IMG/VR virus record: IMGVR_UViG_3300030044_000012 | Reading direction: 5' to 3' (one strand) | Length of the DNA stretch: 64,000 nt | Source: an uncultured virus (IMG/VR IMGVR_UViG_3300030044_000012) | Taxonomy: Duplodnaviria; Heunggongvirae; Uroviricota; Caudoviricetes | Shown: one piece after another, positions 12,248 through 25,466 of the stretch | How positions within the stretch are numbered: the first letter of the stretch is position 1 | Layout of the letters: every line of letters starts with the position of its first letter | Notes under the pieces: generated by a model | The model's input: the letters and a program-made list of their open reading frames with translations, nothing else | What the model was told of the DNA's origin: nothing | The model's database searches: none | Position numbers and translations under genes: made by a program

Positions 12248-12971
12248 GGTGCGTCAGTCCTTGTGGTAACAAGGTACACACTTTTTCAGTGAGTATCTTT
12301 TTCAGATGTGTGTTCATCTCGGGGAGAGGATCAACCCCACCCAATTGTCGATACAGAGAATACAAATTCGTACGGCCAGTTTCATTGGTTACTGCTTTGC
12401 GAATTTTCTTCTCCACCTCCTCCGGAGTGTCATCTAAGAAGAGACAGCCATCCGGTTCGCTCTTGCTCATTTTTTTGGTCGGGTCGGTTAAACTCATGAC
12501 GCGACCGGCAGCGGGGTTGGCGATTGGTATTTTGACTTCCTCACCAAAGGTCTTGTTGTACCGGGCGAGGAGGTCACGGGCAAAGTTCAAGTGCTGGGAT
12601 TGGTCTTCCCCTACAATTACCTCATCGTATCCAGCCACGTCATGAACCATAAGCACTGGATAAACAAACAAATGAGCCGTCTTCTCATTACTGGCACGAA
12701 ACTGGGTCATCCGGTTCAGTTCGCCCGGATACGTCAGTGCCAACAGCCGAAAATATCGGGTGGCGTCAAAGGTGTTTTTCTGATGCTCTATATTCTTAAC
12801 ACCAAACTGCGACAAAGTAAATACCACAGAGGCAACCATTTTGTCTGAGCAAAAAGGAGCATGATATGTGGCAATTAAAACGGTCGCCCCGGATAGGGCT
12901 GGTTGAATACAAGCGAAGTAATGACCAAGGTGCAACCGCCCGGTTGGGCGGAGGCCGCAGAGAGATTTCAT
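12228..12971 (-). CDS. trpS: compact tryptophanyl-tRNA synthetase
   Basis: GLRPTGRLHLGHY (HIGH), YPVLM..D, VGEDQ.QHL..ARD and KMSKS. ATG at 12971 has a GGAG SD. Confidence 0.9.
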   Translation of the reverse strand: MKSLCGLRPTGRLHLGHYFACIQPALSGATVLIATYHAPFCSDKMVASVVFTLSQFGVKNIEHQKNTFDATRYFRLLALTYPGELNRMTQFRASNEKTAHLFVYPVLMVHDVAGYDEVIVGEDQSQHLNFARDLLARYNKTFGEEVKIPIANPAAGRVMSLTDPTKKMSKSEPDGCLFLDDTPEEVEKKIRKAVTNETGRTNLYSLYRQLGGVDPLPEMNTHLKKILTEKVCTLLPQGLTHHGSNSC

Positions 12972-12984
12972 AGCTGGCTCCGAT

Positions 12985-13554
12985 TTAATGGATGAGTTCG
13001 TCGTTGTAACGCAGATGTGGGTGTAGGTACTGGGGCGGTACTTCATCCACGAGCCAGACTCCATTGGGGGTTAGGTAAAAATGAATCCCGTTTTGATGCA
13101 TGTCGCCGGTCCTCACCGTTAACACCACCGGCTTACCATGTCGTTCACCGACCTTGAAGGCCGTCTGCAAATCCGCAGACAGGTGAACGTGGTGTCGGGA
13201 GCCCTTTATCAAACCTAATCTCAGGATGGAGCCAAGGAACCGTCTTGCGGTGCCGTGGTAGAGGAGCTTAGGTGGCTCCACAGGGTCATACTTAAGATCA
13301 ACCTTGATGCTGTGACCTTGAGATGCCCGGATTCGTTTGCCGTCGTCGGAGAACTCAAAACGCTTTTTGTCGTTCTCAGCTACAACCTCGTCAAGCTCTT
13401 CGCGGGTGATTTTATGCCCATGGGAAGCGCAACCCTGAAGGAGTTCTGCCACGGGGCACCAACCAGCCTCATCAAGGGTCAGGCCAGCTTCCTCGGGCTT
13501 GTGCCGCAAGATCAGGCTAAGGAACTTACTTGTACGTACGAGAGGGGTCGTCAT
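12985..13554 (-). CDS. kptA: RNA 2'-phosphotransferase (Tpt1/KptA)
   Basis: SKFLSLILRH, NDKKRF, IRASQGHS, LYHGT, RHHVHLS and NGVWL motifs. Confidence 0.95.
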   Translation of the reverse strand: MTTPLVRTSKFLSLILRHKPEEAGLTLDEAGWCPVAELLQGCASHGHKITREELDEVVAENDKKRFEFSDDGKRIRASQGHSIKVDLKYDPVEPPKLLYHGTARRFLGSILRLGLIKGSRHHVHLSADLQTAFKVGERHGKPVVLTVRTGDMHQNGIHFYLTPNGVWLVDEVPPQYLHPHLRYNDELIH

Positions 13555-13832: not shown

Positions 13833-13865
13833 GGTTTAACTATACCATAGTTTAAGAATATTTTT

Positions 13866-13956
13866 TGGTGGGTGTGGAGGGATTTGAACCCCCACCATTA
13901 GCCCTCTCGGGTACGGATTAAAAGTCCGCTGTGCGACCAGATTACACTACACACCC
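13866..13956 (-). tRNA. tRNA-Lys(UUU) with long variable arm
   Basis: Acceptor GGGTGTG/CACACCC, loop CT-TTT-AA, 19-nt variable region with CCC-GAGA-GGG, CCA end. Confidence 0.88.
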
Positions 13957-13969
13957 ATGAAATAAATTT

Positions 13970-14044
13970 TGGTGGGTGCGGTCGGACTCGAACCGACATT
14001 TCGACGCTTAAAAGGCGAGTTTCCTGCCATTGAATGACGCACCC
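13970..14044 (-). tRNA. tRNA-Lys(UUU) with two anticodon-stem mismatches
   Basis: Cloverleaf with anticodon stem CTCGC/GCGTC and CCA end. Confidence 0.85.
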
Positions 14045-14058
14045 AAACACTTAAATTT

Positions 14059-14128
14059 TGGTGGGCGCGGAGGGAATCGAACCCTCGCCGAGTGGTTAAA
14101 AGCCACATGCTCGACCTTCGACACGCCC
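14059..14128 (-). tRNA. tRNA-Lys(UUU) with truncated D-arm (70 nt)
   Basis: D region is only TCGA-AGG-TCGA. Normal T arm and CCA end. Confidence 0.75.
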
Positions 14129-14161
14129 ATACAACAGTGTGGGCGCATAACCGAAAGGGAA

Positions 14162-14215
14162 CTAGACCCTTACGTTTATCCGACCACACTCGCGTTTTGT
14201 GCGTTTCAATGTCAT
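14162..14215 (-). CDS. putative leader peptide MTLKRTKRECGRINVRV before the Lys(UUU) trio
   Basis: Two AAA codons. The TAG stop sits in a hairpin loop. SD is weak. Confidence 0.35.
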   Translation of the reverse strand: MTLKRTKRECGRINVRV

Positions 14216-14389
14216 GTCTCAATCTCAGTCTGGACTACTTTACAGGCTGTCCACGAAGAACTTCTATTACACCGGGCTTCAGGCAGTTGCCACAAGCATT
14301 GGGTTTGATGACCACCGTCTTGTTCGGTGAAAAACAGCGGCACTGATTAAGCACCACCCCACACGAACATTTCTCAATAAAATGGTCAC

Positions 14390-14755
14390 TCATTTAGATG
14401 CCTTCTTGTCAAACTCAGCCTGAAGTTTTTCGTTCTCTTCAGGGGTGTTATCCTTATGATACACAGCTTCCCAACCAACAGCAACCATTAACTGATCGAA
14501 GTCCCCAGCGGCGTTAATCTTCTCGGTGAGCCCTATGACCCACTCACAGAAGCAGCCGGGGTATAAACTCGGAGTCCATTCCTCCTCGAAGCCATGTTCA
14601 TGACCACCCGCCTGAGCCTGTTTACGCTCTTCCTGACAGCCGGAGCACATCTGAGTAACAACGTAGGCTTCCGCTTCGTCCTCGGTCTTGAAGCCGCATC
14701 TGGAGGGGTCTTCAAAGCCCTCAGGCCGTGCCGGTAAATAAATAGCTGTGTACAT
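14390..14755 (-). CDS. hypothetical protein
   Basis: ORF fits the gene tiling. Confidence 0.6.
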   Translation of the reverse strand: MYTAIYLPARPEGFEDPSRCGFKTEDEAEAYVVTQMCSGCQEERKQAQAGGHEHGFEEEWTPSLYPGCFCEWVIGLTEKINAAGDFDQLMVAVGWEAVYHKDNTPEENEKLQAEFDKKASK

Positions 14756-15274
14756 CAGACCTCAATGAAACTGCTCGAATGGTATGCGGATTCAACAATG
14801 GTTTAAACTCGTCATATAAAGAACCCAAAGTTCCTTTATATGTTTTCGAGCGAACTTTGTGCTTACGCCAGTCAACTCCAGCTTGAGTTAACCGTATGGC
14901 TTTCAGTTGAGCCGAGGAGATAAGACAAGGAGTTGCAGTTGGGTCTTTACGACACTCTAGCAAATCCAAAACCAGTTCTCGCTTTGCTTCCCCTATTTCT
15001 CTTGCTGTGTACTCGGTGATGATACATAATCACCGCCCTCTGTCCACAACAGGAACCCCAGCAAGGCTTGCCGCCTTTAGTATGACATCGTAAGCTACGA
15101 TACCATACGCATCACCTAACCCACCAGCTACATGAGCAGCAATTTGAACCGCATCACAATCTAATACCCGATCTTTAATCAGCTTACGGGAGATTGCTGT
15201 GCTAAGTCCCTCTCGGCCTTCTTCTGTTTCCAGTCTTTGCTGGAGTCTTCGCCAATCCATTCAATCCTCAAATC

Positions 15275-15363
15275 TGGTGCCCCCGGCAGGATTCGAACCT
15301 GCGATTGAGATTTCTCTCGCGAGTTTAGGAAACTCGGGCCTTCGTCCGCTAGACTACGGGGGC
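15275..15363 (-). tRNA. tRNA-Arg(CCU) with long variable arm
   Basis: Loop TT-CCT-AA, V-arm GAGA-GAAA-TCTC, CCA end. Confidence 0.88.
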
Positions 15364-16409
15364 ATGAAACTTAAAACATAGAACGTTGGTACACCCGTTA
15401 GATTCATTATGGTTAGGACTTGCACACTGAACCATAAGGTGTAGCACTTGTTCAGTATCTCCACAAAAAGGGCACTTACTTTCGGTAGTGTACATGAAGC
15501 TACCACAATTCCCACAACAAAAACTTTGACCTTCTTCGCCATGGTACATAAAACTTCTGGCGGGACTACGGCTGAGACGAAGTTTTAGTTGTTCTTTGGC
15601 TTCCCTACTTGATGACATTCGTCACCTCTTTAGAGATGCGGTTCTGACGTTCCTTGTGCAATTGTCCACGCCAGTGCAATCCTAAAAATCCTACGAATGC
15701 GAAGAGCACAGTCTGTGCAGCACTGAGCCAAAGCAACTGGTTGACGAGTTCCTGATACGTCTCACAACTCATACGGACTCCGGGCTCCCAACTCTTTCAC
15801 TGTTTCGATGTCTTCAACTTTGAGCAACCGACGTTCCAACATGTGATTGAAGAAACGAGTTCGAGTGTTCATGAACTTCTTCAATCCCCGATTCTTCTGA
15901 GCGATGCCGTGCTTCCCGCATGTTGAATCCCATCCCCCACCATTCCGGCCTTGGCCGACGTATGCGGTGATTTTCTCAACAAAGCCGCGTTGGTGATTCG
16001 TCTTCACAATATTCCTTAAGCACAGCCTCGGTTACATCAAAGGGTTCAACGTCGATCATTGCTTTGACCTGTAACCCCGACTCGGGCATGTTCCTGCACC
16101 CTTCACAATTGGAATGCCACGTACACGGATGCTTCTCACACCCTATACCATAGTCACCATGCAAAGTCAACATACCTTACTCGCCTTGCTTTCAAATGCG
16201 TATCTTACCACAGACAACGGCCAAAATAGACACCAAAAAGTCAGGGCAGAGTAAAACACCCATTTTTGCTTCCGTGTGTATCTGGTGGTCGTATCCCCTA
16301 GAGGGAATGACATGACCAGCATAAACAGCCCGAGAGCGAGGCAAATATACGAGGTTAGACCGACTAAAAGCAGTAGCATATTAAGTCCTCAAACTGTGCT
16401 TGACAACCT

Positions 16410-16484
16410 TGGTGCCCCCGGCAGGAATCGAACCTGCTTCCTCGATTTAGAAGATCGGTGCCCTATCCATTGGACGACGAAGGC
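16410..16484 (-). tRNA. tRNA-Arg(UCU)
   Basis: Cloverleaf with loop CT-TCT-AA and CCA end. Confidence 0.9.
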
Positions 16485-17054
16485 AAAACTTGTTAGTACC
16501 CATCAGAGAGGTTCGCCAAACCCGGTTTGATTAGAACCCCCCATTTGTCGTAAACAGCTTCGGTCGAGTTGGGGTCGATGAACCCCATACAATACCAATC
16601 GCTTCGACCGTGAATCCACCTCGGTGCATGACACTTGAAGCATTCAACTTGCTCCAATTCTTTGATGTCAGGCATTGGTGTACCCCATCTTACAAAAGCC
16701 ACAGGTGCAGCCAGCTTCATGCACTGTGGAGCCCCGCTTTTCGGCTTCTACTCTAGCGGCCTCACCACAGTTGCCACAGTAGACTTCATTCATGTCGAAG
16801 TCACACCATACAACTTCATTTACAGCTACGCGACTGTCACAACCGCTACAATCAGCTTCGTTCTCCGCGTTTATCCAAGGCATATCACTGTACCGGACCG
16901 ACGAACGGATAACCGCGTGGCAAACAGTACATTCCAACCATCCAAAACAAGTGAACCTGTAGTCGTGACGAATACACATATTTCACTCCTAAAAAGGCTT
17001 CTCGCAATCCGTCCGGACGGACTCCCCTATCATCCTCTTAATTGAGGGTGATAG

Positions 17055-17624
17055 CTATTTTTCTAGTTCGATATTCCAATAAGCGTATGATGCCTTTTCC
17101 GCATACAACCAATTCTGCCACTCGACCCATTCCGGCCTGATGTGCTTGATGTGCAGCCGGAAGTTGAACCGAGGGTCATCGACCTTCGGTACGTAAGGCT
17201 GAGTACGAAGAGGCATATTTGCTTGCTTCGGGGTCATACCTGCCTTGGCCTTGTTGCACTTCTGGCAAGCTACAACCACGTTCATCCAAACAGTAACACC
17301 ACCCTGACAACGGGGGATGACGTGCTCAATCTGGAATTCTTCCGTCGAAACATGCTTACCGCAGTATTGACAGTTACCCTCGTCCCTGATGTAGATGTTA
17401 CGGCGAGAGCAAGGAACAGACATCTTCCTCTTCTTCGTCCAAGCGTTCTTCACTTGAATGACGCGGGGCATACCCATCTCAAAAGAGGTTGAGTGCAGCA
17501 TACGCCCACCCTCGTCTTCCTTGATGATGTTAGCGCGGTCTTCCCAGTAAAGCTTGACCGCATTCATCCAGTCGGTGAAACCGACAGGCTTCCAGTTCAT
17601 GTCGAGAACAAGAGTGTCATTCAT
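17055..17624 (-). CDS. HNH endonuclease
   Basis: RD...CQYCG, IEHVIPR..GG, N.V.AC..CN..K. Followed by a hairpin at about 17027-17054. Confidence 0.9.
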   Translation of the reverse strand: MNDTLVLDMNWKPVGFTDWMNAVKLYWEDRANIIKEDEGGRMLHSTSFEMGMPRVIQVKNAWTKKRKMSVPCSRRNIYIRDEGNCQYCGKHVSTEEFQIEHVIPRCQGGVTVWMNVVVACQKCNKAKAGMTPKQANMPLRTQPYVPKVDDPRFNFRLHIKHIRPEWVEWQNWLYAEKASYAYWNIELEK

Positions 17625-17799
17625 TGTGAACGCTCCTTACATACCTAGTGGTGATGCTTCATTGTCTCCCCTTGCACGGGTTGGATTTAGTTACTACTTC
17701 CCAACTCTTCGGAAAGTATAGCCGTCAGATAGCGGTGGTTTAGTGCTATTCCTTGAAGGGAGTATTTTTCATCTCCTCTCCTCACACTGGGGTGACCCA

Positions 17800-18240
17800 T
17801 CATCCCCGCTGGCTCAATCTCGTCATTGAAACCAAAGCTCCATGTTCGAAGATGGCGTCATACTCAAACCACTCAACCTCAGGTTTCGGAACAGGCTTCC
17901 CGTCCTCGCCCAACATTTCCACTTTGCCTTCTCCTTCAAAGGAAATCAAAAACAGATTTCCTGAATTCTCATCCCCGTAAAAGTTCAGGACTCCTGAAAA
18001 ATCTACAGGGTTCCAGCCCTTTGGAATCCTTGTACAGCTTCCGACCAAACGGGCAAATCCTTCGGCGCTTGGATCACTGCGGTCCTCGACATCATAGTCT
18101 TCAACCTCCAGCTTTCCTTCAACGGTAATGCGATAGTTGTCGAAGAAGGTCTCCAGACTCTTGGTCTGAAACTCAAACTTCGTCGGGTCATCCAAACCCG
18201 GCAACGGATACTCGCAATGTACGTAGTCGAACATGCCCAT
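17800..18240 (-). CDS. hypothetical phage protein (MGMFDYV...FQTK type)
   Basis: N-terminus typical of a recurrent phage family. Confidence 0.7.
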   Translation of the reverse strand: MGMFDYVHCEYPLPGLDDPTKFEFQTKSLETFFDNYRITVEGKLEVEDYDVEDRSDPSAEGFARLVGSCTRIPKGWNPVDFSGVLNFYGDENSGNLFLISFEGEGKVEMLGEDGKPVPKPEVEWFEYDAIFEHGALVSMTRLSQRG

Positions 18241-18416
18241 GTGATACCAAATTTCGTCGGCTTGTCTTTAATCACGTCGCAAGCAAGCCTGTTTGCAGTT
18301 ATCTCTGTCAATCGTTCATGTCTCAACTGTCTCAACTTAAAGGTGTTAAGCAACCTCATTGCACCAGTTTCGAATACTGAGAAGTTGGCGATGCCTTCAT
18401 TTAAGCCCTCAAATTT

Positions 18417-18492
18417 TGGTGCGTCGGGTGGGAGTCGAACCCACAACCTGTCGGTTAAGAGCCGAATGCTCTGCCAGTTGAGCTACCGACGC
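18417..18492 (-). tRNA. tRNA-Lys(CUU)
   Basis: Cloverleaf with loop CT-CTT-AA and CCA end. Confidence 0.93.
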
Positions 18493-19009
18493 ATGATCCC
18501 TTATTAAAGGGGTTAAAAGTTAAGGTTCACAGTGTGGTGCAGGAAGATGATTGCTGTCACTTCCACGACGACGTAGCTGACAAATACAAGAAACAGAATC
18601 CCAAAAATTGGGTTATCTTGCACGATGTCCAGAAGCTTATTCGCTAAATCCTTCACTATTTCCTCCGCTTATCTTCTTCACGCCATCGGTCGCGATATGC
18701 CTTCCAGCACTTGCGACAAACATTATGCTTCGACTCACCACGCATACGCTTATTGAGCGTCGTGCGAAAGATTGCCGGATACTTCCCACAATCCGAACAC
18801 GTCTGCGGCATGGGTAGCCGCCTTACTTCTGTACACATCCGGCATCGCTGAACCACTGAATGTTGATAACTGGCACTAACTCTTCGCTGGTGTCCGTCTC
18901 AACCCATTCATACGTGGCGGTCAGCTTGCTGGGCTTTGAATCGGTGGATTCCAGAATTACTTTGATGCTGTTCGTCAAAGCATTCGTAAGATTCACTTGA
19001 TCTGATGCA

Positions 19010-19879
19010 TCATACGACATTCAATCCCTCCAAGGCTCTAACTACGGCTCCCATATCGGAAGCGTAAAATCCAGAACTGTTCAAGGTGTTGATTTCTACC
19101 ACCTTGTACTCACCACCACAAAGTCCAATGTCCATCACGTATGCAGTGTCAATCGGCTCTGCATAGGTAGAGTCATAAGTGTCAGACTCTGAGCAATCCA
19201 CCGCCAGCATATCCTTCACGAACTCGACCATTGGATGAAACAATGGGTTGTTCGAATCTACCCTCTGGTACATTATCTGTCGCCCGAGAGTACGGTATGA
19301 ACTACCTGTTACTAGTGTACCATCAACTATGAAGAACCGTGCCTCAAGATCAATCTTTTTTGGCTCGGCGTACATCACGGGAGTCTCCGGGGTTAAGCTG
19401 ATGTACCCGTCGTTTGACAAATCCATTATCCGATTCTTCCACTCAGCCAGTGCCACCCCGTCAATGAGGGTGCCGCTGAACGACTTGGAATCATGCACCG
19501 GGCGAACGAACTTTGATCCTTCAAAATTCAGTTCACTGAACGGACAGAACTGAGCGTCATCATTGAGGAAGTGCGGACCAAACCGGGCCTTCAAGTACCT
19601 CATGTCGAACTTCTCGTTCTGAAACCGCCCCGGCTTCCAACCCTTCTCAACAGCGATGTGACCGAGGGTTGTCGCCCCCCAAACCATTACACTGCCCTCC
19701 AACTTCAACTCATGGGCGAACACAACGTCAGGGCCGAAGTTATGGTCGATAATGTCACCCTCTCTGGCATGAGCAAGAACCTTAACCACGGTGTACTGAC
19801 ACCCGTTTTCTTCGAGTGCGTCGAGCAAGGTCTTGAACCCAAACTCATTAAACAGGTTGTCTTGAACTATGTGGTGCAT
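19010..19879 (-). CDS. ATP-grasp protein (R2K/DUF4343-like)
   Basis: FVRP..D.KSFSG, E.RFFIVDG, YVMDIG and KVVEIN..NSSGFY motifs. Confidence 0.75.
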   Translation of the reverse strand: MHHIVQDNLFNEFGFKTLLDALEENGCQYTVVKVLAHAREGDIIDHNFGPDVVFAHELKLEGSVMVWGATTLGHIAVEKGWKPGRFQNEKFDMRYLKARFGPHFLNDDAQFCPFSELNFEGSKFVRPVHDSKSFSGTLIDGVALAEWKNRIMDLSNDGYISLTPETPVMYAEPKKIDLEARFFIVDGTLVTGSSYRTLGRQIMYQRVDSNNPLFHPMVEFVKDMLAVDCSESDTYDSTYAEPIDTAYVMDIGLCGGEYKVVEINTLNSSGFYASDMGAVVRALEGLNVV

Positions 19880-20163
19880 CTTCGTCGCTTTCTATCAACT
19901 CGGTTGAACAGTTGTCTTCGACTACACGAACATCCAGCCCGTCAACGTACGCCTTGATAGTGGGAACAAACTCCCATTCCTTGTAACGATCCCACGGGTC
20001 TTCAATCTCAAGAACCACTCGGAATCTTCTCAATCATCCACCCTGTTGAAATTCCCGTGGGTGTCGGAGACTACCTTAACTTCAACTTCCATCTTAAGTA
20101 TACCTCAGTGCTAATTGCACAAAAGGCTAATACTCGGAAACTTGGCTCACCCGAAAGGGACGC

Positions 20164-20259
20164 TTTGCGGTGCTAGTCGGTGTTCTCACCGGACAAGCTT
20201 GGGACATCCAATGTATCGCACTGGGGAGACCCTAGCTGGTGTTGTAACCACACCGCAAA
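20164..20259 (-). ncRNA. putative multibranched structured RNA
   Basis: Closing stems TTTGCGGTG/CACCGCAAA and GCTAG/CTAGC with internal hairpins. Intergenic. Confidence 0.4.
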
Positions 20260-20602
20260 CTTGTTACTTGCTGTACTTGTCTTTTAACTTTCCAGCTTCC
20301 GCCGCCTTCGTGGTGTAATACTCATATAGGTTCTTCGCCGAGTCGGCTGGTCTCGGGTACTTAGCGTATAGACTGACAGGTGCGTTCTTGCTACGCTCTA
20401 ACCACAGCGCCTTGGCCGCAGCAGCCTTCTGTTGATACTTTACTTGCAGGTTAGCATAATAAGCTGCGGTCTTCGGTGATTGAGCGTTTGCAAAACACGA
20501 CAGTAGAATGATGCTTACGAATAATGCTTTCATAAAATTACCTCCACTTATATAAGACTGGGGTAACCCATGAAGAATTTGGCAATTATTCATAAAACTT
20601 TT

Positions 20603-20676
20603 TGGCTCGGCGTCAGAGATTCGAACTCCGGTTAACTGGGTCAGAGCCAGTCGTCCTACCGCTGAACGAACGCCGA
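20603..20676 (-). tRNA. tRNA-Gln(CUG)
   Basis: Loop CT-CTG-AC, T1-A72 pair, G73, CCA end. Confidence 0.9.
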
Positions 20677-20677
20677 A

Positions 20678-21833
20678 CTATACTTCCTTAAGCACTTTCA
20701 TGCCAAGGAGGACCATACACTGTTGTAATACGCCAACTGCATAATGAAGGGCGTAAACGAACCCGGCATCACCATGCTGAATCGACTTCTTACCATACAC
20801 CTCTGACAGCTTCTTCGCCAGAGACAGAGCAAACTGTGCGATGTACGTAGGCTCCTTTTGGTCGATAGCCTTTTGCCAGTAGTATTGCAAGTAGCTGGCA
20901 AACCCACAAAGCTGGGCATCTTCCAGAGATAGAACATCCGGGTCACCTTCAATCGCAAAAGATAAAGCCTTGCTGACCTTTGCATTAGTGTGGGAGATGT
21001 AGATTCCGGGGCTTGTAATGTTGCACCAGTTCTTCACATCGCACACAGTGTCCTTACCTACTGACGTGGAGTTAAACTGCCACGCCAGCACGTTCCAAGC
21101 TAAATCGAAAGGGTGTGGCGTGGGTTTTAATACCGCAAGGGTCTCATTGATGAGTTCGTCGGCCAACATTAGGTTGACGTTCTCACCTTCCAACTTTACT
21201 GTACTCCGCATCTTTTTCTTATCGAGGCCGAGGACAAGCCCCATGGACAAATGTTTGTTGCCCACACCTAACGACTGAAAGTGTGAATGTTGTTCCTGAC
21301 CTGTAAGATAGAAATCAGGCTTCACAACTTCGGCGAAACTCAAGTCGTGTGCGGCGTAGGTTGCCGCTCCTGTAGACTTGTAGATCACCACGCTGCCCAG
21401 CATCTTGCATCCAGCGTACCCACCCTCACCTTCAGTGAGAAGCACGGTTGGGGCCGGTAGCTCATTGTCGAGATACATGACCGGACTGTATCCGGCGACT
21501 TGGCACCATGCCTTATACTTGGCAAGAGCACCCTCTACAACCCCATTGGCGGCTCCCAGCATCGCCACGGGTTTGGCTCCAGTGATGTTGGCAATCGCAG
21601 CCGCAATGCAAAGGTTTTTCAAATGCCCAACGTGAAGGTCTTTGTTCAGGTTAGGTGAAAACCCATCAAATATGATGCCTGATGGTACGGCCTTCGTCGG
21701 CCATTCCCAAGCTTGTGGGGTGACATGGTAGTTGTGAAATATTCCCGTGGGCTTATAATCAAACCCGACGAAGATACTCCAGTGAAGTCGAAGATGTAAT
21801 TCCGACTCCGATGTTCTCAGGCATTGGTTTCAT
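20678..21833 (-). CDS. argS: arginyl-tRNA synthetase split by a +1 frameshift near 21771
   Basis: FSPNLNKDLHVGH (HIGH, upstream of the TTG used by the ORF track), KSTG..TY...DL, GLV..DKKKMRS and EP..IA.F...LA...Y. The ATG at 21833 has an AGGAG SD but is in another frame. Confidence 0.82.
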
Positions 21834-22252
21834 GATGCGTCTCCTAAAATTACTCCAAAGGTGTGCCTCTCGGCCAAAGACTCTAAGGGCTGGCATGGTC
21901 GTCTCAGTACAGGGGTAAGGATGTCTTAATTCCCCGTTCCCAATCAGACCCACAGTTCCTCTCGTAATGTGTGGGCAAAACCATGTCTTGCTACTAGTTT
22001 GCCAAGTTGGCCGATGTAGGAGGATACTGACCCCGTTACCGGGGGGCTAAAGCCTACTGTCGAACCACTCAGGTACTCCATTCACATTCCCTGCGGTTAT
22101 ACGCTGGACTTTAGTGCATCCCCAAAACATTGTCCAGACCCTTGGCCTCGGTCGCGCTAGACCTACTACCCTCCGCTCGTCACTCCTTAGAAGATGGGAT
22201 TCTAACCCGACCTCCCTTTGGAACTTGTGTGGCCGAATGTCAGGCCACGAAG

Positions 22253-22325
22253 CTGGAACGGAAGGACTCGAACCTTCAACCTTGGGATTCAGAATCCCCT
22301 GCACTGCCAATTGTGCTACGTTCCA
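22253..22325 (-). tRNA. tRNA-Gln(CUG), CCA not encoded
   Basis: Acceptor TGGAACG/CGTTCCA and loop TT-CTG-AA. Confidence 0.88.
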
Positions 22326-22331
22326 AAAACT

Positions 22332-22408
22332 TGGTACCTCAGAGTGGATTCGAACCACTGAATGCGGCCTTATGAGAGCCGTGTCTTAGACCACTTGACG
22401 ACTGAGGC
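22332..22408 (-). tRNA. tRNA-Met/Ile2(CAU)
   Basis: Loop CT-CAT-AA and CCA end. Confidence 0.88.
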
Positions 22409-22745
22409 ATCTTTCTTTGTGGTGCCGACGTAAATGGCAGTTCGCACAAAGCATGATACACTTTTCAATTTCCACAATCAGTCTGGTGAGTGACCAACCA
22501 AGAACCCGACTGTCTGATACATTGGAATCCTTATCCCCTTGATGATGAAACTGGAGTACCACAATGTCGGTCTCCCCACAATCGAGGCAAGGATGTGATT
22601 CCTTGTACGTTTTGATGTATGCCCGGTTCCTCACCGTTGCAACTTCCGTGGTGTACTTCTTAGCCCTTGCCTTAACAGCTTCCTTGTTTGCTTCGTAATG
22701 GCGTTTCGCTGACCTAGCTTGTGCTTCTTTGTTCCTGTTACTCAT
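22386..22745 (-). CDS. HNH endonuclease (homing-type) ending inside a tRNA
   Basis: CLDCGE...LQFHH...LCANCH motifs. Probable start MSNRNK. Confidence 0.8.
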   Translation of the reverse strand: MSNRNKEAQARSAKRHYEANKEAVKARAKKYTTEVATVRNRAYIKTYKESHPCLDCGETDIVVLQFHHQGDKDSNVSDSRVLGWSLTRLIVEIEKCIMLCANCHLRRHHKERCLSRQVV

Positions 22746-22788
22746 ACAATAGACCTCTATGTATGAGTTAGGAAGTCGAATTTTAAAT

Positions 22789-22898
22789 TGGCTCGGGGGA
22801 CGAGATTCGAACTCGTGATAACCTCCAGCTTCGACTTCCCGGCGCATCCGGTCGGCCTTTATTACGCTGGCGCTTTGCCACGCCTAAGCTATCCCCTG
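22789..22898 (-). ncRNA. tRNA-like RNA with a 36-nt expanded anticodon loop
   Basis: D arm, CCAGC/GCTGG stem, ACGAG-TTCGAAT-CTCGT and CCA. The acceptor is only partly paired. Confidence 0.6.
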
Positions 22899-23294
22899 TA
22901 CTCAAGGGTCAATCTAATGTCTGTTCCGGCGATGTTTGGCACGAAAGGGACAATATATTAACTCTTCATTGAAAGTGAAGTAACCGTGGCGTACACCGCG
23001 ATGAGTAAATTGTCAAAGAACAAACTAACTCGGGCCTGAGCCCCTAAACTTCCACTTCTTCAACTTCGCTGGAGCCACATGCAGGGCATGTAATCCAGAA
23101 CTTCGTGTCGGGATGGTAAGCATCGCCAACCGCAATCTTTGCACTTGACCTGCTCTTCCATCACGTCATCCATGAGTGCAGTCCTTAATGTGGCTTGACC
23201 CATAGGGGCCACTAACACGAACCCACCCTCTTCCATAACAACGCTTGCAAAATAAGGAAGCAAACCAACGTCGAATCATTACATCTCCCAAACT

Positions 23295-23347
23295 TGGGGA
23301 GGGTTGATTTTCGCCAAGGTTATGACCCTTGTAGCGGACAACCCTCC
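23295..23347 (-). ncRNA. armless tRNA-like RNA with CAT loop
   Basis: GGAGGGTTG/CAACCCTCC plus CCA, and CAAGG-GTCATAA-CCTTG. Confidence 0.5.
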
Positions 23348-23457
23348 TTTGCCGCCTTCCGCGTTACCAGATGCACGACAAACTCAGCGGACGTGGGAAG
23401 CTGTTTCCCTTCTAAGTAGGACTTACTCACACGGCCTACACGTCCTAAACTATGTTA

Positions 23458-23548
23458 TGGCTCCGAGGGTAGGATTCGAACCTACAGGGAAGGATAAACC
23501 AACACGCATTAACAGTGCGTTCCGTTGCCAATTACGGTTTACCTCGGA
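23458..23548 (-). tRNA. tRNA-Asn(GUU) with 18-nt variable region
   Basis: Loop CT-GTT-AA, G73, CCA end. Confidence 0.85.
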
Positions 23549-23555
23549 ACAACTT

Positions 23556-23630
23556 TGGCTCACTCGGAGAGATTCGAACTCCCGACCCGCTGGTTAACGG
23601 CCAGCCGCTCTGCCACTGAGCTACGAGTGA
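23556..23630 (-). tRNA. tRNA-Asn(GUU) with C33
   Basis: Loop CC-GTT-AA and CCA end. Confidence 0.88.
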
Positions 23631-23650
23631 ACAACTTGTACATCTAAACT

Positions 23651-23739
23651 TGGCTCAAGGGAAGAGACTCGAACTCTCAGAGGGCTTTCACCCACTTGCT
23701 TAACAGGCAAGTACGCTACCAGTTACGTTTTACCCTTGA
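23651..23739 (-). tRNA. tRNA-Asn(GUU) with long variable arm
   Basis: V-arm GGGT-GAAA-GCCC and CCA end. Confidence 0.86.
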
Positions 23740-23761
23740 ACAACTTGTGCTTCTAAACCTT

Positions 23762-23836
23762 TGGCAGGGGCGGAGGGATTCGAACCCCCAAGTTCGGTTT
23801 TGGAGACCGACAGTTTGCCGTTGAGCTTACGCCCCT
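23762..23836 (-). tRNA. tRNA-Trp(CCA)
   Basis: Loop CT-CCA-AA, G73, CCA end. Confidence 0.9.
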
Positions 23837-23842
23837 GTAACT

Positions 23843-23949
23843 TAGACGACGGGCGTCCTTCCGTTGAACGACGCGATGCTCTATGCATCTGGTAGAGGAC
23901 TTACTAACGGCCTTGACCAGATGGGATTCGAACCCATACAGCCCGTCTA
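23843..23949 (-). ncRNA. circularly permuted tRNA-like RNA (YrlA-like order)
   Basis: T arm precedes D arm, closed by GACGGGC/GCCCGTC. Confidence 0.5.
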
Positions 23950-23967
23950 CTTGTTGGGCAAACTTCT

Positions 23968-24041
23968 TGCCCGAATAGTAGGACTCGAACCTACACTGTG
24001 TCTCGTTCGTAGCGAGATTGACTATCCATTGCCGATGGGGC
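23968..24041 (-). pseudogene. degenerate tRNA-Arg(ACG)
   Basis: Intact anticodon and T arms. Broken acceptor stem and no CCA. Confidence 0.6.
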
Positions 24042-24271
24042 CACATGTCACCGTTCGATTACTTTTCGGCATGTCACCGAACGGGTACAAACTTGAGCCG
24101 GGGCTTACCCGGAACAGCGGACTTACTCCGACCGCCGCCCGTGGGCTCGGTCACTGCGTCTGCCAGAGGATTTACTCACTCGACCTCTGCTACACTTCGA
24201 AAGAGGCAACATATTACCTATTACACGGTCAAATCGCACATAACCGGCAATATGTTGCCTTTTATCCAACT

Positions 24272-24360
24272 TGGTGTACCCGGAGGGACTCGAACCCCCG
24301 TGGAGAACTTTCGTTCAACAGATTCGTAGTCTGGTGCCTCATCCGCTAGGCTACGGGTAC
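24272..24360 (-). tRNA. tRNA-Arg(ACG) with long variable arm
   Basis: V-arm GAAC-GAAA-GTTC and CCA end. Confidence 0.88.
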
Positions 24361-24452
24361 ATGGTGAAACTAAATCCGCCCCCTTTGCCATTTGTTGTCG
24401 CGAACAACGCCGCTTACGCGGGAACCGATTTGAACGGTCTCAGGGATGGTAC

Positions 24453-24528
24453 TGGGGCACCCGGTGAGAATCGAACTCACGACCTACTCCTTCGGAGGGA
24501 GCCGCTCTATCCACTGAGCTACGGGTGC
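24453..24528 (-). tRNA. tRNA-Arg(CCG)
   Basis: Loop CT-CCG-AA and CCA end. Confidence 0.92.
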
Positions 24529-24757
24529 AAAACTTAAGCCGGGTCTCTCCAGCCGGGGGTCACTCCACTTCGACTTGCCATTCAACCTAACTTCGGACAT
24601 CCCGAAGGTCTATTGACTGTCTTCACCGCCGAGTGGCGGAACGTCACGCAAGGTGTCGCGTTCTCGACGTAGATTCTAGCGGTGGATTTCCTTCAGGGTT
24701 TCCCCTTACTGGTATTACATCCCTTTCGGGTACCGCACTGTCCACGTCGAAACTTAT

Positions 24758-24833
24758 TGGGGCGGCTGGAGAGATTCGAACTCTCGACTACCTGAGCCAC
24801 AGTCAGGCGTTCTACCGCTGAACTACAGCCGCC
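24758..24833 (-). tRNA. tRNA-His(GUG), G-1 encoded
   Basis: Loop CT-GTG-GC, G-1:C73 pair, CCA end. Confidence 0.92.
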
Positions 24834-24847
24834 ATAAAAACAAAACT

Positions 24848-24928
24848 TGGGGCGAATGGTGGGAATTGAACCCACGAGACCACGGTTTCACAGACCGGAG
24901 GCACATACCAACACTGCCGACAAACGCC
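24848..24928 (-). tRNA. tRNA-His(GUG) variant, G-1 encoded
   Basis: Loop CT-GTG-AA, two T.T acceptor mismatches, CCA end. Confidence 0.8.
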
Positions 24929-25046
24929 ATAAACTTTGGGGTCTCTCCCTCCCGTCAAGCCGACACGTCTGGCTTTCGACCTATTACGCTCATGTTGTCA
25001 AACATCATCTCGATTTGACCTGAGTCAATCGGAATATCGTACATCT

Positions 25047-25134
25047 TGGCAGGGGTGGAGGGGGTCGAACCCTCAGTGAGCGTTACGCTCGGCGGTTTTG
25101 GAGACCGCTGCATTTCCAACAATGCTTCACCCCT
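25047..25134 (-). tRNA. tRNA-Trp(CCA) with long variable arm
   Basis: V-arm GAGCG-TAA-CGCTC, G73, CCA end. Confidence 0.88.
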
Positions 25135-25166
25135 AAAAACAAAAAGCCCTAGCCGGTGGCTAGGGT
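25135..25166 (-). terminator. attenuator terminator 1
   Basis: ACCCTAGCC-ACC-GGCTAGGGC plus TTTTTGTTTTT, abutting tRNA-Trp. Confidence 0.88.
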
Positions 25167-25195
25167 CATGTGAATCCAATCTGGCGGCTTAGGAG

Positions 25196-25297: not shown

Positions 25298-25466
25298 GGT
25301 GATTCCTTATGCGAGGCGTCTTCACAACCTCACTTACTTATAGTACCCGAAGTCGAGATATTTACAACACTATTTTTTGATTTATTTTCGAAAATCTGTG
25401 GAAAACCCTAAATTTGACAATTTCAGCCATTTCCGTTAAAACTCTTCTTGCGTCGAAAGGAGCGTC

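What the first reader, a model, noticed from the sequence alone, without database searches (positions are those of the whole stretch)
13866..25134. Long variable arms on normally class I tRNAs
Lys(UUU) 13866, Arg(CCU) 15275, Asn 23458 and 23651, Arg(ACG) 24272 and Trp 25047 have 16-19 nt variable regions, mostly stems capped by GNRA-type loops. In bacteria, long V-arms belong to Ser, Leu, Tyr and Sec tRNAs. Each of these amino acids also has a short-arm tRNA here. Inference: the arms may block nucleases or toxins, pair with the phage's compact TrpRS and ArgRS, or cause SerRS/LeuRS mischarging.
Basis: partly seen in the sequence, partly recalled or inferred. Interest (0 to 1): 0.78.

Follow-up and report, generated by a model that had tools for sequence, protein, structure and literature searches.

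The report
Phage tRNAs with an extra arm
A very large uncultured phage carries lysine, arginine, asparagine and tryptophan tRNAs with an extra hairpin arm that textbooks reserve for other tRNAs; such tRNAs turn out to be common in big phages, and the arm may shield them from host enzymes that cut tRNAs.

Summary
Six minus-strand tRNA genes with class-I anticodons carry 16-19 nt variable regions: Lys-UUU 13866, Arg-CCU 15275, Asn 23458 and 23651, Arg-ACG 24272, Trp 25047. Five form clear hairpins. The arm of Asn 23458 is weak.

They keep the recognition marks of their own amino acids. Their arm geometry differs from Ser and Leu tRNAs: short stem, 3-8 unpaired bases on the 3' side. The codons they read make up about 12% of the phage's codons. 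Cognate charging is therefore far more likely than mischarging.

The arms are not tied to the phage's compact TrpRS or ArgRS:
- 0 of 10 large phage records with a long-arm Trp tRNA encode a TrpRS.
- Trp tRNAs beside compact TrpRS genes are short.
- 25 of 26 Arg tRNAs beside compact ArgRS genes are short.

Long-arm class-I tRNAs are widespread in large uncultured phages and in bacterial tRNA arrays (93 of 754 sampled). Stems change while pairing is kept.

My best reading is that these are working tRNAs whose added arm hinders host nucleases that grip the anticodon stem (PARIS/OLD type). That step is inferred, not shown.

This scan had already noted the same phenomenon on other phage DNA. I found no paper describing it.

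The parts
13866..13956 (-). tRNA-Lys(UUU), long arm, 91 nt. Variable region 13894-13912: A CCC-GAGA-GGG CUAAUGGU.
   Evidence: ARAGORN; Rfam 61.4 bits. The orthologue in G001 keeps the arm as CUC-GAAA-GAG with the same 8-nt tail.
13970..14044 (-). tRNA-Lys(UUU), short arm, 75 nt. Anticodon stem has only 3 pairs.
   Evidence: Rfam 45.6 bits.
14059..14128 (-). Third tRNA-Lys(UUU), with a reduced D arm (3-bp stem, 3-nt loop, no GG).
   Evidence: Found by Rfam only, 43.9 bits; sequence. One RNA-library contig has 4 more bases (AGCT) behind 14120, which would restore a 4-bp D stem.
15275..15363 (-). tRNA-Arg(CCU), long arm, 89 nt. Variable region 15303-15319: C GAGA-GAAA-UCUC AAUC. A20 present.
   Evidence: Rfam 51.8 bits; shuffle p = 0.004. 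No counterpart in G001.
16410..16484 (-). tRNA-Arg(UCU), short arm. Nearest relative of Arg(CCU)-long within the window.
   Evidence: 0.75 identity over 48 core positions.
23458..23548 (-). tRNA-Asn(GUU), long variable region of 18 nt (23486-23503) with only a weak GG/CC hairpin.
   Evidence: Rfam 36.8 bits; missed by ARAGORN; shuffle p = 0.152. The tRNA-Asn in G001 with the same acceptor stem (UCCGAGG) has a 5-nt variable loop.
23556..23630 (-). tRNA-Asn(GUU), short arm, 75 nt.
   Evidence: Rfam 63 bits.
23651..23739 (-). tRNA-Asn(GUU), long arm, 89 nt. Variable region 23679-23694: U GGGU-GAAA-GCCC UCU. 3-bp D stem.
   Evidence: Rfam 39.2 bits; shuffle p = 0.011.
23762..23836 (-). tRNA-Trp(CCA), short arm, 75 nt.
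   Evidence: Contigs at least 90% alike lie on it at high depth in DNA and RNA runs and run on into unlike flanks, so it resembles cellular Trp tRNAs of the same community.
24272..24360 (-). tRNA-Arg(ACG), long arm, 89 nt. Variable region 24300-24317: U GAAC-GAAA-GUUC UCCAC. A20 present; C27-U43 mismatch.
   Evidence: Rfam 52.8 bits; shuffle p = 0.020. G001 has a different, short Arg(ACG).
24453..24528 (-). tRNA-Arg(CCG), short arm.
   Evidence: Rfam 68.5 bits.
24848..24927 (-). tRNA-His(GUG), 80 nt, with an 11-nt D loop and two acceptor mismatches, beside a normal tRNA-His at 24758-24832.
   Evidence: Rfam 29.0 bits, exactly at the gathering score.
25047..25134 (-). tRNA-Trp(CCA), long arm, 88 nt. 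Variable region 25075-25091: C GAGCG-UAA-CGCUC ACU. A1-U72, G2-C71, G3-C70, G73.
   Evidence: Rfam 48.9 bits; shuffle p = 0.008. The G001 orthologue has GUC-UUCG-GAC with the same ACU tail. A variant contig changes A-U to G-C in the stem.
12228..13064 (-). Compact TrpRS-like gene. Relatives are about 230-260 aa, so the true start is probably near residue 32-35 of this ORF.
   Evidence: Pfam PF00579, E = 1.1e-33. The family occurs on contigs up to 669 kb. HLGH and KMSKS are kept. The domain alignment printed covers query residues 105-231 (chain residues 92-228 of 329). Only 77 residues follow KMSKS to the end of the ORF.
20678..21829 (-). Compact ArgRS-like gene, given as the open frame. The listed ORF starts at 21622, but the HVGH motif lies upstream in the same frame.
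   Evidence: Translation. Relatives of 350-400 aa carry PF00750 and PF05746. No homologue in G001.
30165..32126 (-). RlaP-type RNA-repair nucleotidyltransferase (context).
   Evidence: Pfam PF10127, E = 9.6e-15; PHROG 388.
54584..55834 (-). RNA ligase (context: tRNA repair).
   Evidence: Pfam PF09414, E = 3.1e-20; PHROG 968.
61702..62562 (-). Thg1-like tRNA-His guanylyltransferase / 3'-5' polymerase (context: tRNA 5'-end repair).
   Evidence: Pfam PF04446, E = 7.8e-27; PHROG 4717, E = 7.1e-77.

Best explanation
These are working phage tRNAs that still carry their normal amino acids (Lys, Arg, Asn, Trp). A short hairpin has been added in the variable region, between the anticodon stem and the T stem. 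That gives them a class-II-like shape whose arm geometry is closest to tRNA-Tyr and unlike tRNA-Ser or tRNA-Leu.

The host's ordinary synthetases most likely charge them, because the anticodon, discriminator base, acceptor pairs and A20 are all kept.

The arm is maintained by selection. [quoted passage not shown] The examples are Toprim nucleases of the PARIS AriB and P2 OLD type. The arm projects from the core between those two contact sites.

The phage keeps a short-arm copy beside the long-arm one, carries other remodelled copies, and encodes RNA-repair enzymes. This fits a layered answer to tRNA attack.

Shown: the genes, the arms, their conservation, their wide spread in large phages, their independence from phage synthetases.
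Inferred: cognate charging, and above all the shielding role.
For: Structure and identity:
- All six score as tRNA, with the extra bases in the variable region.
- U33, purine 37, G18G19, the T loop and an encoded CCA are present.
- Lys has UUU and A73. Both Arg tRNAs have C35 and A20. Both Asn tRNAs have GUU and G73. Trp has CCA, G73 and A1-U72/G2-C71/G3-C70. The identity rules are recalled.
- The nearest non-orthologous tRNA is the short copy for the same amino acid for Trp (0.83), Arg-CCU (0.75) and Asn 23651 (0.67).

Selection on the arm:
- In the syntenic relative G001 (70-95% nucleotide identity), the Lys arm changes from CCC/GGG to CUC/GAG and the Trp arm from GAGCG/CGCUC to GUC/GAC. The tails are unchanged.
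- A variant contig changes A-U to G-C in the Trp stem.
- Across sampled phage loci the variable regions beat their own shuffles at p <= 0.05 in 66% of 89 Trp and 44% of 68 other class-I long arms. The figures for Tyr, Ser and Leu are 38%, 71% and 83%; 5% is expected by chance.

Spread:
- Pooled, 93 of 754 distinct class-I tRNAs have a variable region of 10 nt or more.
- Short plus long twins of Lys-UUU, Lys-CUU and Asn stand side by side in distant relatives.
- In complete 310-405 kb phages the long-arm gene is sometimes the only phage copy found for Asn, Cys, Trp or Val in the tRNA clusters I fetched.
- In 185,579 cellular genomes only 79 pattern hits occur. Of these, 37 are real long-arm Trp tRNAs, and 23 of those lie in dense tRNA arrays.

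Nuclease link:
- AriB cuts between positions 40 and 41, and in the authors' AlphaFold3 model its second site faces D-loop U16-U17. Its targets are Lys-UUU, Thr-UGU, Asn-GUU and Thr-CGU (bioRxiv 10.1101/2025.02.04.636281, passages read).
- P2 OLD cuts at 28/29 and 40/41, and phage tRNAs resist it by a shorter anticodon stem (PMC12445682, passages read).
- In my sample those four AriB targets are long-armed in 32 of 136 cases against 59 of 599 for other class-I tRNAs, Trp left out. Odds ratio 2.8, p = 4e-5, post hoc.
- The window also holds an RNA ligase, a RlaP nucleotidyltransferase and a Thg1-like enzyme.
- Several tRNAs have shortened anticodon stems.
Against: - No cleavage, charging or expression test exists.
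- The host and its defence systems are unknown.
- Long arms also occur on tRNAs not known to be nuclease targets (Cys 8 of 28, Met 7 of 58, Gln 5 of 47, Pro 6 of 54). The window's own Trp and Arg-ACG are not on the AriB list.
- Arg is rarely long-armed elsewhere (2 of 73).
- The enrichment test was chosen after seeing the data. The loci were picked by a long-arm Trp pattern or by compact synthetase genes, and related phages are counted separately.
- Arms come and go between close relatives. Asn 23458 has an 18-nt region where its G001 counterpart has 5 nt, and G001 lacks three of the six long-arm genes.
- A closer ArgRS relative, L246, has an all-short array.
- The Asn 23458 arm barely pairs. 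This fits weak or no selection in some cases.
- Published phage escape from AriB and OLD works through point changes in the anticodon stem and D loop, not through an added arm.
Confidence: 0.45

Rival explanations
1. The arm has no job of its own. The variable loop tolerates insertions wherever the cognate synthetase does not touch it. In fast-rearranging phage tRNA arrays, hairpins are gained and lost, or class-II genes are remodelled to new anticodons. Stable hairpins survive because floppy insertions would harm folding.
For: - Arms are gained or lost between the window and G001: Asn 23458 against a 75-nt orthologue, and three long-arm genes absent from G001.
- The Asn 23458 arm is nearly unpaired.
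- Long arms occur on at least 15 amino-acid families.
- The reverse also happens: only 63 of 92 phage Leu tRNAs have a long arm, and Gemmata-type arrays hold Leu tRNAs with 4-5 nt loops.
- Four HNH and endonuclease VII genes lie among the tRNA genes at 17055-17624, 22386-22847, 37768-38331 and 39597-40166 (a fifth HNH-bearing ORF stands outside the tRNA regions at 56411-57631).
- GNRA loops are about as common in true Ser, Leu and Tyr arms.
Against: - Short plus long twins of the same anticodon are kept side by side in phages whose TrpRS is only 50-58% identical to the window's.
- Pairing is kept through changes on both strands in the Lys and Trp arms.
- The frequency is very uneven: Lys 31%, Cys 29%, His 28%, Asn 26%, against Arg 3%, Gly 2%, Ala 0%.
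- The long-arm gene is the only copy found in the fetched tRNA clusters of some complete phages.
Confidence: 0.25
2. The arms are handles for phage enzymes other than synthetases, such as the RNA ligase, RlaP nucleotidyltransferase or Thg1-like repair set, or a modification enzyme. Alternatively they prevent host modification of positions 46 and 47. Either way phage tRNAs would be marked as 'self' for repair or protected from host marking.
For: - Repair genes lie in the same 64-kb window.
- The insertion lies at the 5' side of the variable loop and leaves a 3-8 nt tail where positions 46-48 would be.
- The tails are conserved between the window and G001: ACU for Trp and CUAAUGGU for Lys.
Against: - Only some of the phage's tRNAs have the arm.
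- Long-arm tRNAs occur in many unrelated phage contigs whose repair gene content I did not examine.
- I made no co-occurrence test.
Confidence: 0.1
3. The arms make private pairs with the phage's compact TrpRS and ArgRS. These enzymes have lost parts of their tRNA-binding domains and would use the arm instead.
For: - The window encodes a TrpRS-like protein with only 77 residues after KMSKS to the end of the ORF, where I recall about 130 in a typical bacterial TrpRS (the ORF translation is; the solved chains are 322-388 aa). It also encodes an ArgRS-like protein of about 354 aa; a typical ArgRS has about 577 (recalled).
- The relative G001 lacks the ArgRS-like gene and both long-arm Arg tRNAs in the syntenic stretch.
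- Long-arm Arg tRNAs are rare elsewhere (2 of 73), yet the window has two.
Against: - 0 of 10 large viral records with a long-arm Trp tRNA have a TrpRS homologue. PF00579 matches 0 of 5 complete ones, with 14 of 14 controls positive.
- tblastn with the TrpRS against the stored DNA of the 121 long-arm Trp loci gave no hit. Up to 3 kb of flank was held for 80 of them and less for the others.
- Trp tRNAs beside compact TrpRS genes are short in 4 of 4 loci, 3 distinct sequences.
- 25 of 26 Arg tRNAs within 10 kb of compact ArgRS genes are short, including all three in L246, the closest relative that has tRNAs.
- Lys and Asn long-arm tRNAs have no phage synthetase in the window.
Confidence: 0.07
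4. SerRS, LeuRS or TyrRS charge the long-arm tRNAs, so Lys, Arg, Asn and Trp codons are partly read as another amino acid. This would be deliberate mistranslation or recoding, as in nematode nev-tRNAs or allo-tRNAs.
For: - SerRS and LeuRS largely ignore the anticodon (recalled).
- Asn and Trp long-arm tRNAs have G73 like tRNA-Ser. Lys and Arg have A73 like tRNA-Leu and tRNA-Tyr.
- Lys-long is 0.75-0.83 identical to Leu(UAA) over 48 core positions.
- The arm geometry resembles tRNA-Tyr.
Against: - The window's arms have 3-5 bp stems and 3-8 unpaired 3' bases. Ser has 5-7 bp and 1 base, and Leu has 2 bases.
- The acceptor stems are not the GGAG type of the phage's own Ser tRNAs.
- TyrRS needs a GUA anticodon and A73 (recalled).
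- The cognate anticodon and discriminator sets are complete.
- The affected codons are 12.2% of the phage's own codons, so mischarging would damage its proteome.
- Long-arm genes are the only copy found for their amino acid in the fetched tRNA clusters of some complete phages.
Confidence: 0.05

Closest known systems
Nuclease-resistant phage tRNAs: T5 tRNA-Lys(UUU), Thr(UGU) and Asn(GUU) that neutralise PARIS AriB (PMC11464382, listing only; bioRxiv 10.1101/2025.02.04.636281, passages read). Also phage tRNA-Thr that resists P2 OLD (PMC12445682, passages read).
   Same: These are phage-encoded copies of the tRNAs a host nuclease attacks. They are kept although the host has its own, and they differ from host tRNAs near the nuclease contact sites (anticodon stem 39-41, D loop 16, anticodon stem length). 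The amino-acid overlap is with Lys-UUU and Asn-GUU here, and with Thr-UGU in relatives.
   Different: The published variants escape by a few base substitutions or a shorter anticodon stem. None has an added variable arm. No resistance has been measured for the tRNAs here. Trp and Arg-ACG are not listed AriB targets.
Bacterial class II tRNAs, in particular tRNA-Tyr
   Same: The variable region is 10 nt or more and forms a stem-loop. Several members have 3-bp D stems. The arm geometry is a short 3-5 bp stem with about 3 unpaired bases on the 3' side. That was the commonest form for phage Tyr (10 of 13) and for long-arm Trp (45 of 79).
   Different: The anticodons, discriminators and acceptor stems are those of Lys, Arg, Asn and Trp. 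The Lys arm has an 8-nt tail and the Arg-ACG arm a 5-nt tail.
Class-II-bodied tRNAs with class-I anticodons that change the code: nematode nev-tRNAs (recalled, not read) and allo-tRNAs (PMC5389517, abstract seen in the listing).
   Same: A long variable arm is combined with an anticodon for an amino acid that normally uses class I tRNAs.
   Different: Those tRNAs keep Leu or Ser identity and are charged with Leu or Ser. Allo-tRNAs also have 8/4 or 9/3 acceptor/T stems. The tRNAs here have 7/5 stems and complete cognate identity sets.
Earlier notes of this scan on other phage DNA (e1-5364918, e1-4046269, e1-1068258)
   Same: They describe class-I anticodons on long-arm bodies, often beside a normal copy, with cognate recognition marks kept.
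   Different: They concern other genomes and other members (nine tRNAs in a 344-kb phage; a single Asn; Ile-UAU). They are unchecked AI notes. Here I add the survey, the synthetase tests and the nuclease argument.

Membership tests
tRNA (Rfam RF00005) | Covariance-model score at or above the gathering score of 29 bits, with full-length cloverleaf | tested here: met
   The six genes score 61.4, 51.8, 39.2, 36.8, 52.8 and 48.9 bits, all covering model positions 1-71. ARAGORN finds five of the six.
Class II (long-variable-arm) tRNA architecture | Variable region of 10 nt or more that forms a stem-loop | tested here: met
   The regions are 16-19 nt. Hairpins of 3-5 bp occur in five of six, with p <= 0.02 in four. 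Asn 23458 forms only 2 bp.
Class II (long-variable-arm) tRNA architecture | Belongs to Ser, Leu, Tyr or Sec in bacteria | tested here: not met
   The anticodons are UUU, CCU, GUU (twice), ACG and CCA, with matching discriminators.
SerRS substrates (tRNA-Ser, tRNA-Sec, allo-tRNA) | Long arm with a stem of about 5-7 bp and at most about 1 unpaired base before the T stem; G73; GGAG-type acceptor stem (rules recalled; geometry measured on phage Ser tRNAs) | tested here: not met
   Phage Ser tRNAs have a 1-nt tail in 24 of 28 and stems of 5-7 bp in 25 of 28. The window's arms have 3-8 nt tails and 3-5 bp stems. G73 occurs only in Asn and Trp. No acceptor stem starts GGAG.
Cognate identity sets of LysRS, ArgRS, AsnRS and TrpRS (E. 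coli rules, recalled) | Lys: U35 and A73. Arg: C35 and A20. Asn: GUU and G73. Trp: CCA, G73 and A1-U72/G2-C71/G3-C70. | tested here: met
   Read from the sequences. Actual charging is not testable with these tools.
Nuclease-resistant phage tRNA (anti-PARIS / anti-OLD type) | Phage-encoded isoacceptor of a tRNA cut by a host nuclease | tested here: inconclusive
   Lys-UUU and Asn-GUU are AriB targets. Trp, Arg-ACG and Arg-CCU are not on that list, though OLD's list includes Arg. The host and its nucleases are unknown.
Nuclease-resistant phage tRNA (anti-PARIS / anti-OLD type) | Not cleaved by the nuclease, and rescues infection | not testable with these tools
   Needs cleavage and plaque assays.
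Private synthetase-tRNA pair | The long-arm tRNA co-occurs with the compact synthetase across genomes | tested here: not met
   TrpRS is found in 0 of 10 large records that carry a long-arm Trp tRNA. Trp tRNAs are short beside compact TrpRS in 4 of 4 loci. 25 of 26 Arg tRNAs are short beside compact ArgRS.

The most novel reading that the evidence does not exclude
Large phages and mobile tRNA arrays carry a widespread, so far undescribed class of tRNAs: ordinary class-I tRNAs refitted with a Tyr-like extra arm. The arm acts as a steric shield against defence nucleases that clamp the anticodon stem and D loop (PARIS AriB, OLD-family Toprim enzymes and their like). If so, tRNA architecture itself, and not only point mutations, is a battleground of phage-host conflict. 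The textbook class I / class II split would then be a property of cellular core genomes only.
Probability: 0.3. Interest if true: 0.85.

Novelty: new variant of a known kind. Interest (0 to 1): 0.68.

Why it matters
Textbooks state that in bacteria only Ser, Leu, Tyr and Sec tRNAs have a long variable arm. Here that rule fails for six genes in one phage. In my sample it fails for about one in eight class-I tRNAs of large uncultured phages (93 of 754).

If the arm protects tRNAs from defence nucleases, it is a new kind of counter-defence. It can be tested directly with existing PARIS and OLD assays.

If the arm is neutral, it still shows which synthetases and ribosome steps tolerate an extra arm. 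That is useful for engineering orthogonal or tagged tRNAs.

The natural short and long twins in this window are ready-made matched pairs for such tests.

Seven full-text searches and three papers read in passages turned up no description of this class. Subscription journals are not covered by that library.

Tried and rejected
- Megablast of 13500-25500 against named phages found no match.
- No whole genome is held for the window.
- A single-protein locus search with the ArgRS-like ORF gave only 24-residue matches.
- tblastn of the TrpRS, rIIA-like and RlaP proteins against named phages found only relatives at 35% identity or less, so no named close relative exists there.
- This scan has no notes for this genome.
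- A pattern specific for the Lys long-arm tRNA found only G001 in viral contigs. The other four long-arm genes therefore have no second orthologue for a covariation count.
- Reads: all four runs are kept as contigs. Two RNA libraries hold scattered pieces of the stretch, one over the Trp long-arm gene. DNA can be present in such libraries, and contigs show neither ends nor levels, so expression is neither shown nor excluded. Stretches without RNA cover say nothing.
- Joints between distant tRNA genes in table 5 have sides of 20-26 letters. I take them for assembly cross-joins through similar T arms.
- I considered that long arms mark the tRNAs that read A-starting codons. The counts do not support it: Cys, His and Gln are also frequent, and Thr-GGU and Thr-CGU are never long.
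- I could not decide whether the window's long-arm genes descend from one long-arm ancestor or from their short twins. Core identity favours the short twins for Trp, Arg-CCU and Asn 23651, and is ambiguous for Lys and Arg-ACG.
- Complex prediction was not used, because it does not take RNA.

Full report
WHAT IS THERE

The window is part of a very large uncultured phage. Its ArgRS-like protein occurs on a contig of 310 kb. The DNA is held by many peat metagenome runs. rIIA- and rIIB-like genes, Ku, an NAD ligase and many HNH endonuclease genes are present. No named phage is close.

ARAGORN finds 21 tRNA genes, all on the minus strand. Rfam finds 21 matches to RF00005, two of which ARAGORN misses.

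Six genes with class-I anticodons are 88-91 nt long:
- Lys(UUU) 13866-13956
- Arg(CCU) 15275-15363
- Asn(GUU) 23458-23548
- Asn(GUU) 23651-23739
- Arg(ACG) 24272-24360
- Trp(CCA) 25047-25134

The Rfam covariance model places the extra 13-16 bases as a single insertion in the variable region in all four long genes of 23400-25200. Unconstrained folding gives a hairpin there in all six, though only two pairs in Asn 23458.

Against 1000 shuffles the six variable regions give p = 0.100, 0.004, 0.152, 0.011, 0.020 and 0.008, in the order listed above. Four loops are GNRA (GAGA and three GAAA). The Trp arm has a UAA triloop on five pairs.

- Asn 23458 is a weak case.
- Not all loops are GNRA.
- Short copies with the same anticodon exist in the window only for Lys-UUU, Asn and Trp.

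WHAT AMINO ACID THEY CARRY

All six have U33, a purine at 37, G18G19, a normal T loop, 7/5 acceptor/T stems and an encoded CCA.

Their identity nucleotides are those of their anticodon's amino acid (E. coli rules, recalled):
- Lys: UUU and A73.
- Both Arg: C35 and A20.
- Both Asn: GUU, G73 and U1-A72.
- Trp: CCA, G73, A1-U72, G2-C71 and G3-C70.

Over 48 core positions the nearest non-orthologous tRNA is the short copy for the same amino acid for Trp (0.83), Arg-CCU (0.75) and Asn 23651 (0.67). Lys and Arg-ACG are ambiguous, with Leu-UAA at 0.73-0.83.

The arms are built differently from Ser and Leu arms. I compared distinct phage tRNAs from 121 loci:
- Ser arms have one unpaired base before the T stem in 24 of 28, and stems of 5-7 bp.
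- Leu arms have two unpaired bases in 29 of 33.
- Tyr arms have three in 10 of 13.
- Long-arm Trp tRNAs have three in 45 of 79.
- Other long-arm class-I tRNAs have three or four in 21 of 30.
- The window's arms have 3, 3, 4, 5 and 8, with stems of 3-5 bp.

The codons read by the six genes make up 122 per thousand codons in 62 window ORFs. Mischarging would therefore hit the phage's own proteins hard. I conclude that cognate charging is by far the likeliest. It is not shown.

RELATIVES

ARAGORN of the 122 Trp tRNAs there at 80 nt or more. Of 92 distinct ones, 89 have a variable region of 10 nt or more.

One hit, G001, is a 42.5-kb contig syntenic with the window at 70-95% nucleotide identity.

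G001 keeps the Lys and Trp long-arm genes:
- The Lys stem changes from CCC/GGG to CUC/GAG and the loop from GAGA to GAAA. The 8-nt tail is identical.
- The Trp arm changes from GAGCG-UAA-CGCUC to GUC-UUCG-GAC, with the same ACU tail.

A contig from an RNA library that covers 25048-25182 differs from the window at five places, all inside the arm. Two of them turn the A-U pair into G-C.

G001 also shows turnover:
- Its Asn gene with the same acceptor stem as Asn 23458 has a 5-nt loop.
- Its Arg-ACG is short and unrelated.
- Asn 23651, Arg-CCU and the ArgRS-like gene have no counterpart.

More distant phages, found through the compact TrpRS at 44-58% identity, again carry twins side by side:
- Lys-UUU of 74 and 86 nt
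- Lys-CUU of 74 and 84 nt
- Asn of 74 and 91 nt
- a long Thr-UGU

HOW COMMON

I pooled all distinct tRNAs from the sampled loci, leaving out the Trp genes that were selected for. Of 754 class-I tRNAs, 93 have a variable region of 10 nt or more:

| Amino acid | Long / total |
|---|---|
| Lys | 18 / 58 |
| Cys | 8 / 28 |
| His | 9 / 32 |
| Asn | 14 / 53 |
| Thr | 7 / 57 (all Thr-UGU) |
| Met | 7 / 58 |
| Arg | 2 / 73 |
| Gly | 1 / 54 |
| Ala | 0 / 28 |

Only 63 of 92 Leu tRNAs are long.

In four complete phages of 310-405 kb the long-arm gene is sometimes the only phage copy found in the tRNA clusters I fetched. This holds for Asn, Cys, Trp and Val in G002.

The variable regions are more stable than their own shuffles at p <= 0.05 in 66% of 89 Trp and 44% of 68 other long-arm class-I tRNAs. 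That is like Tyr (38%) and somewhat below Ser (71%) and Leu (83%).

In one genome for each of 185,579 prokaryote species the same pattern hits only 79 places. Of these, 37 are real long-arm Trp tRNAs. Of those, 23 lie in dense tRNA arrays, for example of Gemmata and other Planctomycetes, and 12 stand alone.

The sample is biased. Loci were chosen by the Trp pattern or by compact synthetase genes, and related phages are counted separately.

THE SYNTHETASE IDEA

The TrpRS-like ORF keeps HLGH and KMSKS, but only 77 residues follow KMSKS to the end of the ORF; I recall about 130 in a typical bacterial TrpRS (translation; PDB comparison). Its relatives are 230-260 aa and lie on contigs up to 669 kb.

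The ArgRS-like frame keeps HVGH, MRST and a DALR domain in about 354 aa.

The arms do not follow these enzymes:
- 0 of 10 large viral records with a long-arm Trp tRNA have a TrpRS homologue. PF00579 matches 0 of 5 complete ones, while 14 of 14 control genomes ring.
- tblastn with the TrpRS against the stored DNA of the 121 long-arm Trp loci gave no hit. Up to 3 kb of flank was held for 80 of them, and less for the others.
- Beside compact TrpRS genes the Trp tRNA is short in 4 of 4 loci, 3 distinct sequences.
- Of 26 Arg tRNAs within 10 kb of a compact ArgRS gene, 25 are short.

The joint absence of ArgRS and both long-arm Arg genes from G001 is the one observation in favour.

WHY THE ARM

The window invests in tRNA damage control. 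It encodes an RNA ligase, a RlaP-type nucleotidyltransferase and a Thg1-like enzyme. It also holds other remodelled copies:
- a Lys-UUU with a reduced D arm
- a Lys-UUU with a 3-pair anticodon stem
- a His with an 11-nt D loop
- several anticodon stems with a 27-43 mismatch

Published work shows that PARIS AriB cuts between positions 40 and 41 of tRNA-Lys(UUU), Thr(UGU), Asn(GUU) and Thr(CGU). In the authors' AlphaFold3 model the second subunit faces D-loop U16-U17, and T5 escapes by substitutions at 39, 41 and 16 (bioRxiv 10.1101/2025.02.04.636281, passages read).

P2 OLD cuts at 28/29 and 40/41, and phage tRNAs resist it by a shorter anticodon stem together with altered bases (PMC12445682, passages read).

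The variable region starts three bases after the 40/41 cut and packs against the D stem. From general tRNA geometry, a hairpin projecting there lies between the two contact areas of such a dimer. That is my inference.

The three tandem Lys-UUU genes each alter one of these regions: the anticodon stem, the D arm, or the variable region.

In my sample the four AriB targets are long-armed in 32 of 136 cases against 59 of 599 for other class-I tRNAs, Trp left out. The odds ratio is 2.8 and p = 4e-5, but the test was chosen after seeing the data.

Several points count against this reading:
- Cys, Met, Gln and Pro also carry arms.
- Trp and Arg-ACG are not listed AriB targets.
- The host is unknown.
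- Arms are gained and lost quickly.
- The Asn 23458 arm barely pairs.

A neutral or merely stabilising insertion therefore remains a serious rival.

KNOWN OR NEW

- A review of non-canonical tRNAs does not contain the word phage and defines class II as Ser, Leu and Tyr (PMC7609411, passages).
- The paper on phage tRNA escape by anticodon-loop mutations never uses the word variable (PMC10264068, passages).
- Full-text searches for combinations of variable arm or loop, class or type II, and phage or viral tRNA found nothing on this.
- The library lacks most subscription journals, and I read no supplements.
- This scan's earlier notes describe the same phenomenon in other phages. I tested their main claims here only on my own data.

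VERDICT

The feature is real and is not an artefact of one gene finder. It belongs to a widespread but apparently undescribed variant of phage tRNA.

My confidence by step:
- Cognate function: about 0.75.
- The arm is under selection in most members: about 0.7.
- The nuclease-shield role: about 0.35.

Noticed in passing
window 22794-22902 (-); G001 34662-34767 (+): A conserved tRNA-like RNA of about 106-109 nt. It has acceptor, D and T arms, but the anticodon loop is replaced by a 38-nt insert containing its own CCGG hairpin. Its outer anticodon-stem pair changes from C-G to U-A between the window and G001. In G001 it scores 30.5 bits as tRNA, and nothing in the window. It overlaps the start of an HNH endonuclease ORF (22386-22847). 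It resembles the anticodon-less tRNA mimics noted earlier by this scan.
   Followed up: partly
window 14059-14128 (-): The Lys(UUU) gene with a reduced D arm differs from a contig in an RNA library by four bases (AGCT behind 14120). Those bases would restore a normal 4-bp D stem. Two DNA runs match the window's shorter form. It may be a strain-specific deletion allele.
   Followed up: partly
window 23840-24270 and other tRNA spacers; G001 33100-33700: The spacers between tRNA genes hold repeated short motifs of the GAGUAAGUCC type inside small hairpins, an AAGUUU motif just upstream of many tRNAs, and orphan T-arm-like and anticodon-arm-like pieces. One example is a CUACGAA loop with a GTAGG-TTCGAGT-CCTAC T arm near 24000-24060. 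These may be processing signals or remnants of broken tRNA genes.
   Followed up: no
window 17055-17624, 22386-22847, 37768-38331, 39597-40166, 56411-57631 (-): Five HNH or endonuclease VII genes are scattered through the window, four of them (17055-17624, 22386-22847, 37768-38331, 39597-40166) among the tRNA genes and one (56411-57631) outside the tRNA regions. They are probably homing elements, and they may drive the gene gain, loss and reshuffling seen against G001.
   Followed up: no
window 12228-13064 and 20678-21829 (-): The compact TrpRS (about 237 aa) and compact ArgRS (about 354 aa) belong to large families found on contigs of hundreds of kb. The ArgRS frame has no ATG, GTG or TTG upstream of its HVGH motif, so its start codon is unclear.
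   Followed up: partly
loci L293, L296, L300, L308, L310, L312, L338, L351 (Gemmata and other Planctomycetes): Dense bacterial arrays of 16-20 tRNA genes in 5 kb combine a long-arm Trp tRNA with Leu tRNAs that have only 4-5 nt variable loops. Here the class rule is broken in both directions.
   Followed up: no
window 23762-23836 and 18417-18492 (-): The short Trp and Lys(CUU) genes are matched at 90% identity or more by high-depth contigs that continue into unrelated flanks, in both DNA and RNA runs from peat. These short copies therefore closely resemble cellular tRNAs of the same community, possibly the host's.
   Followed up: no
window 19010-19879 (-): An ATP-grasp enzyme of the R2K clade (Pfam PF14243 and PF18299) sits inside the tRNA region between Lys(CUU) and Gln(CUG). 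G001 has a homologue at 72% nucleotide identity.
   Followed up: no
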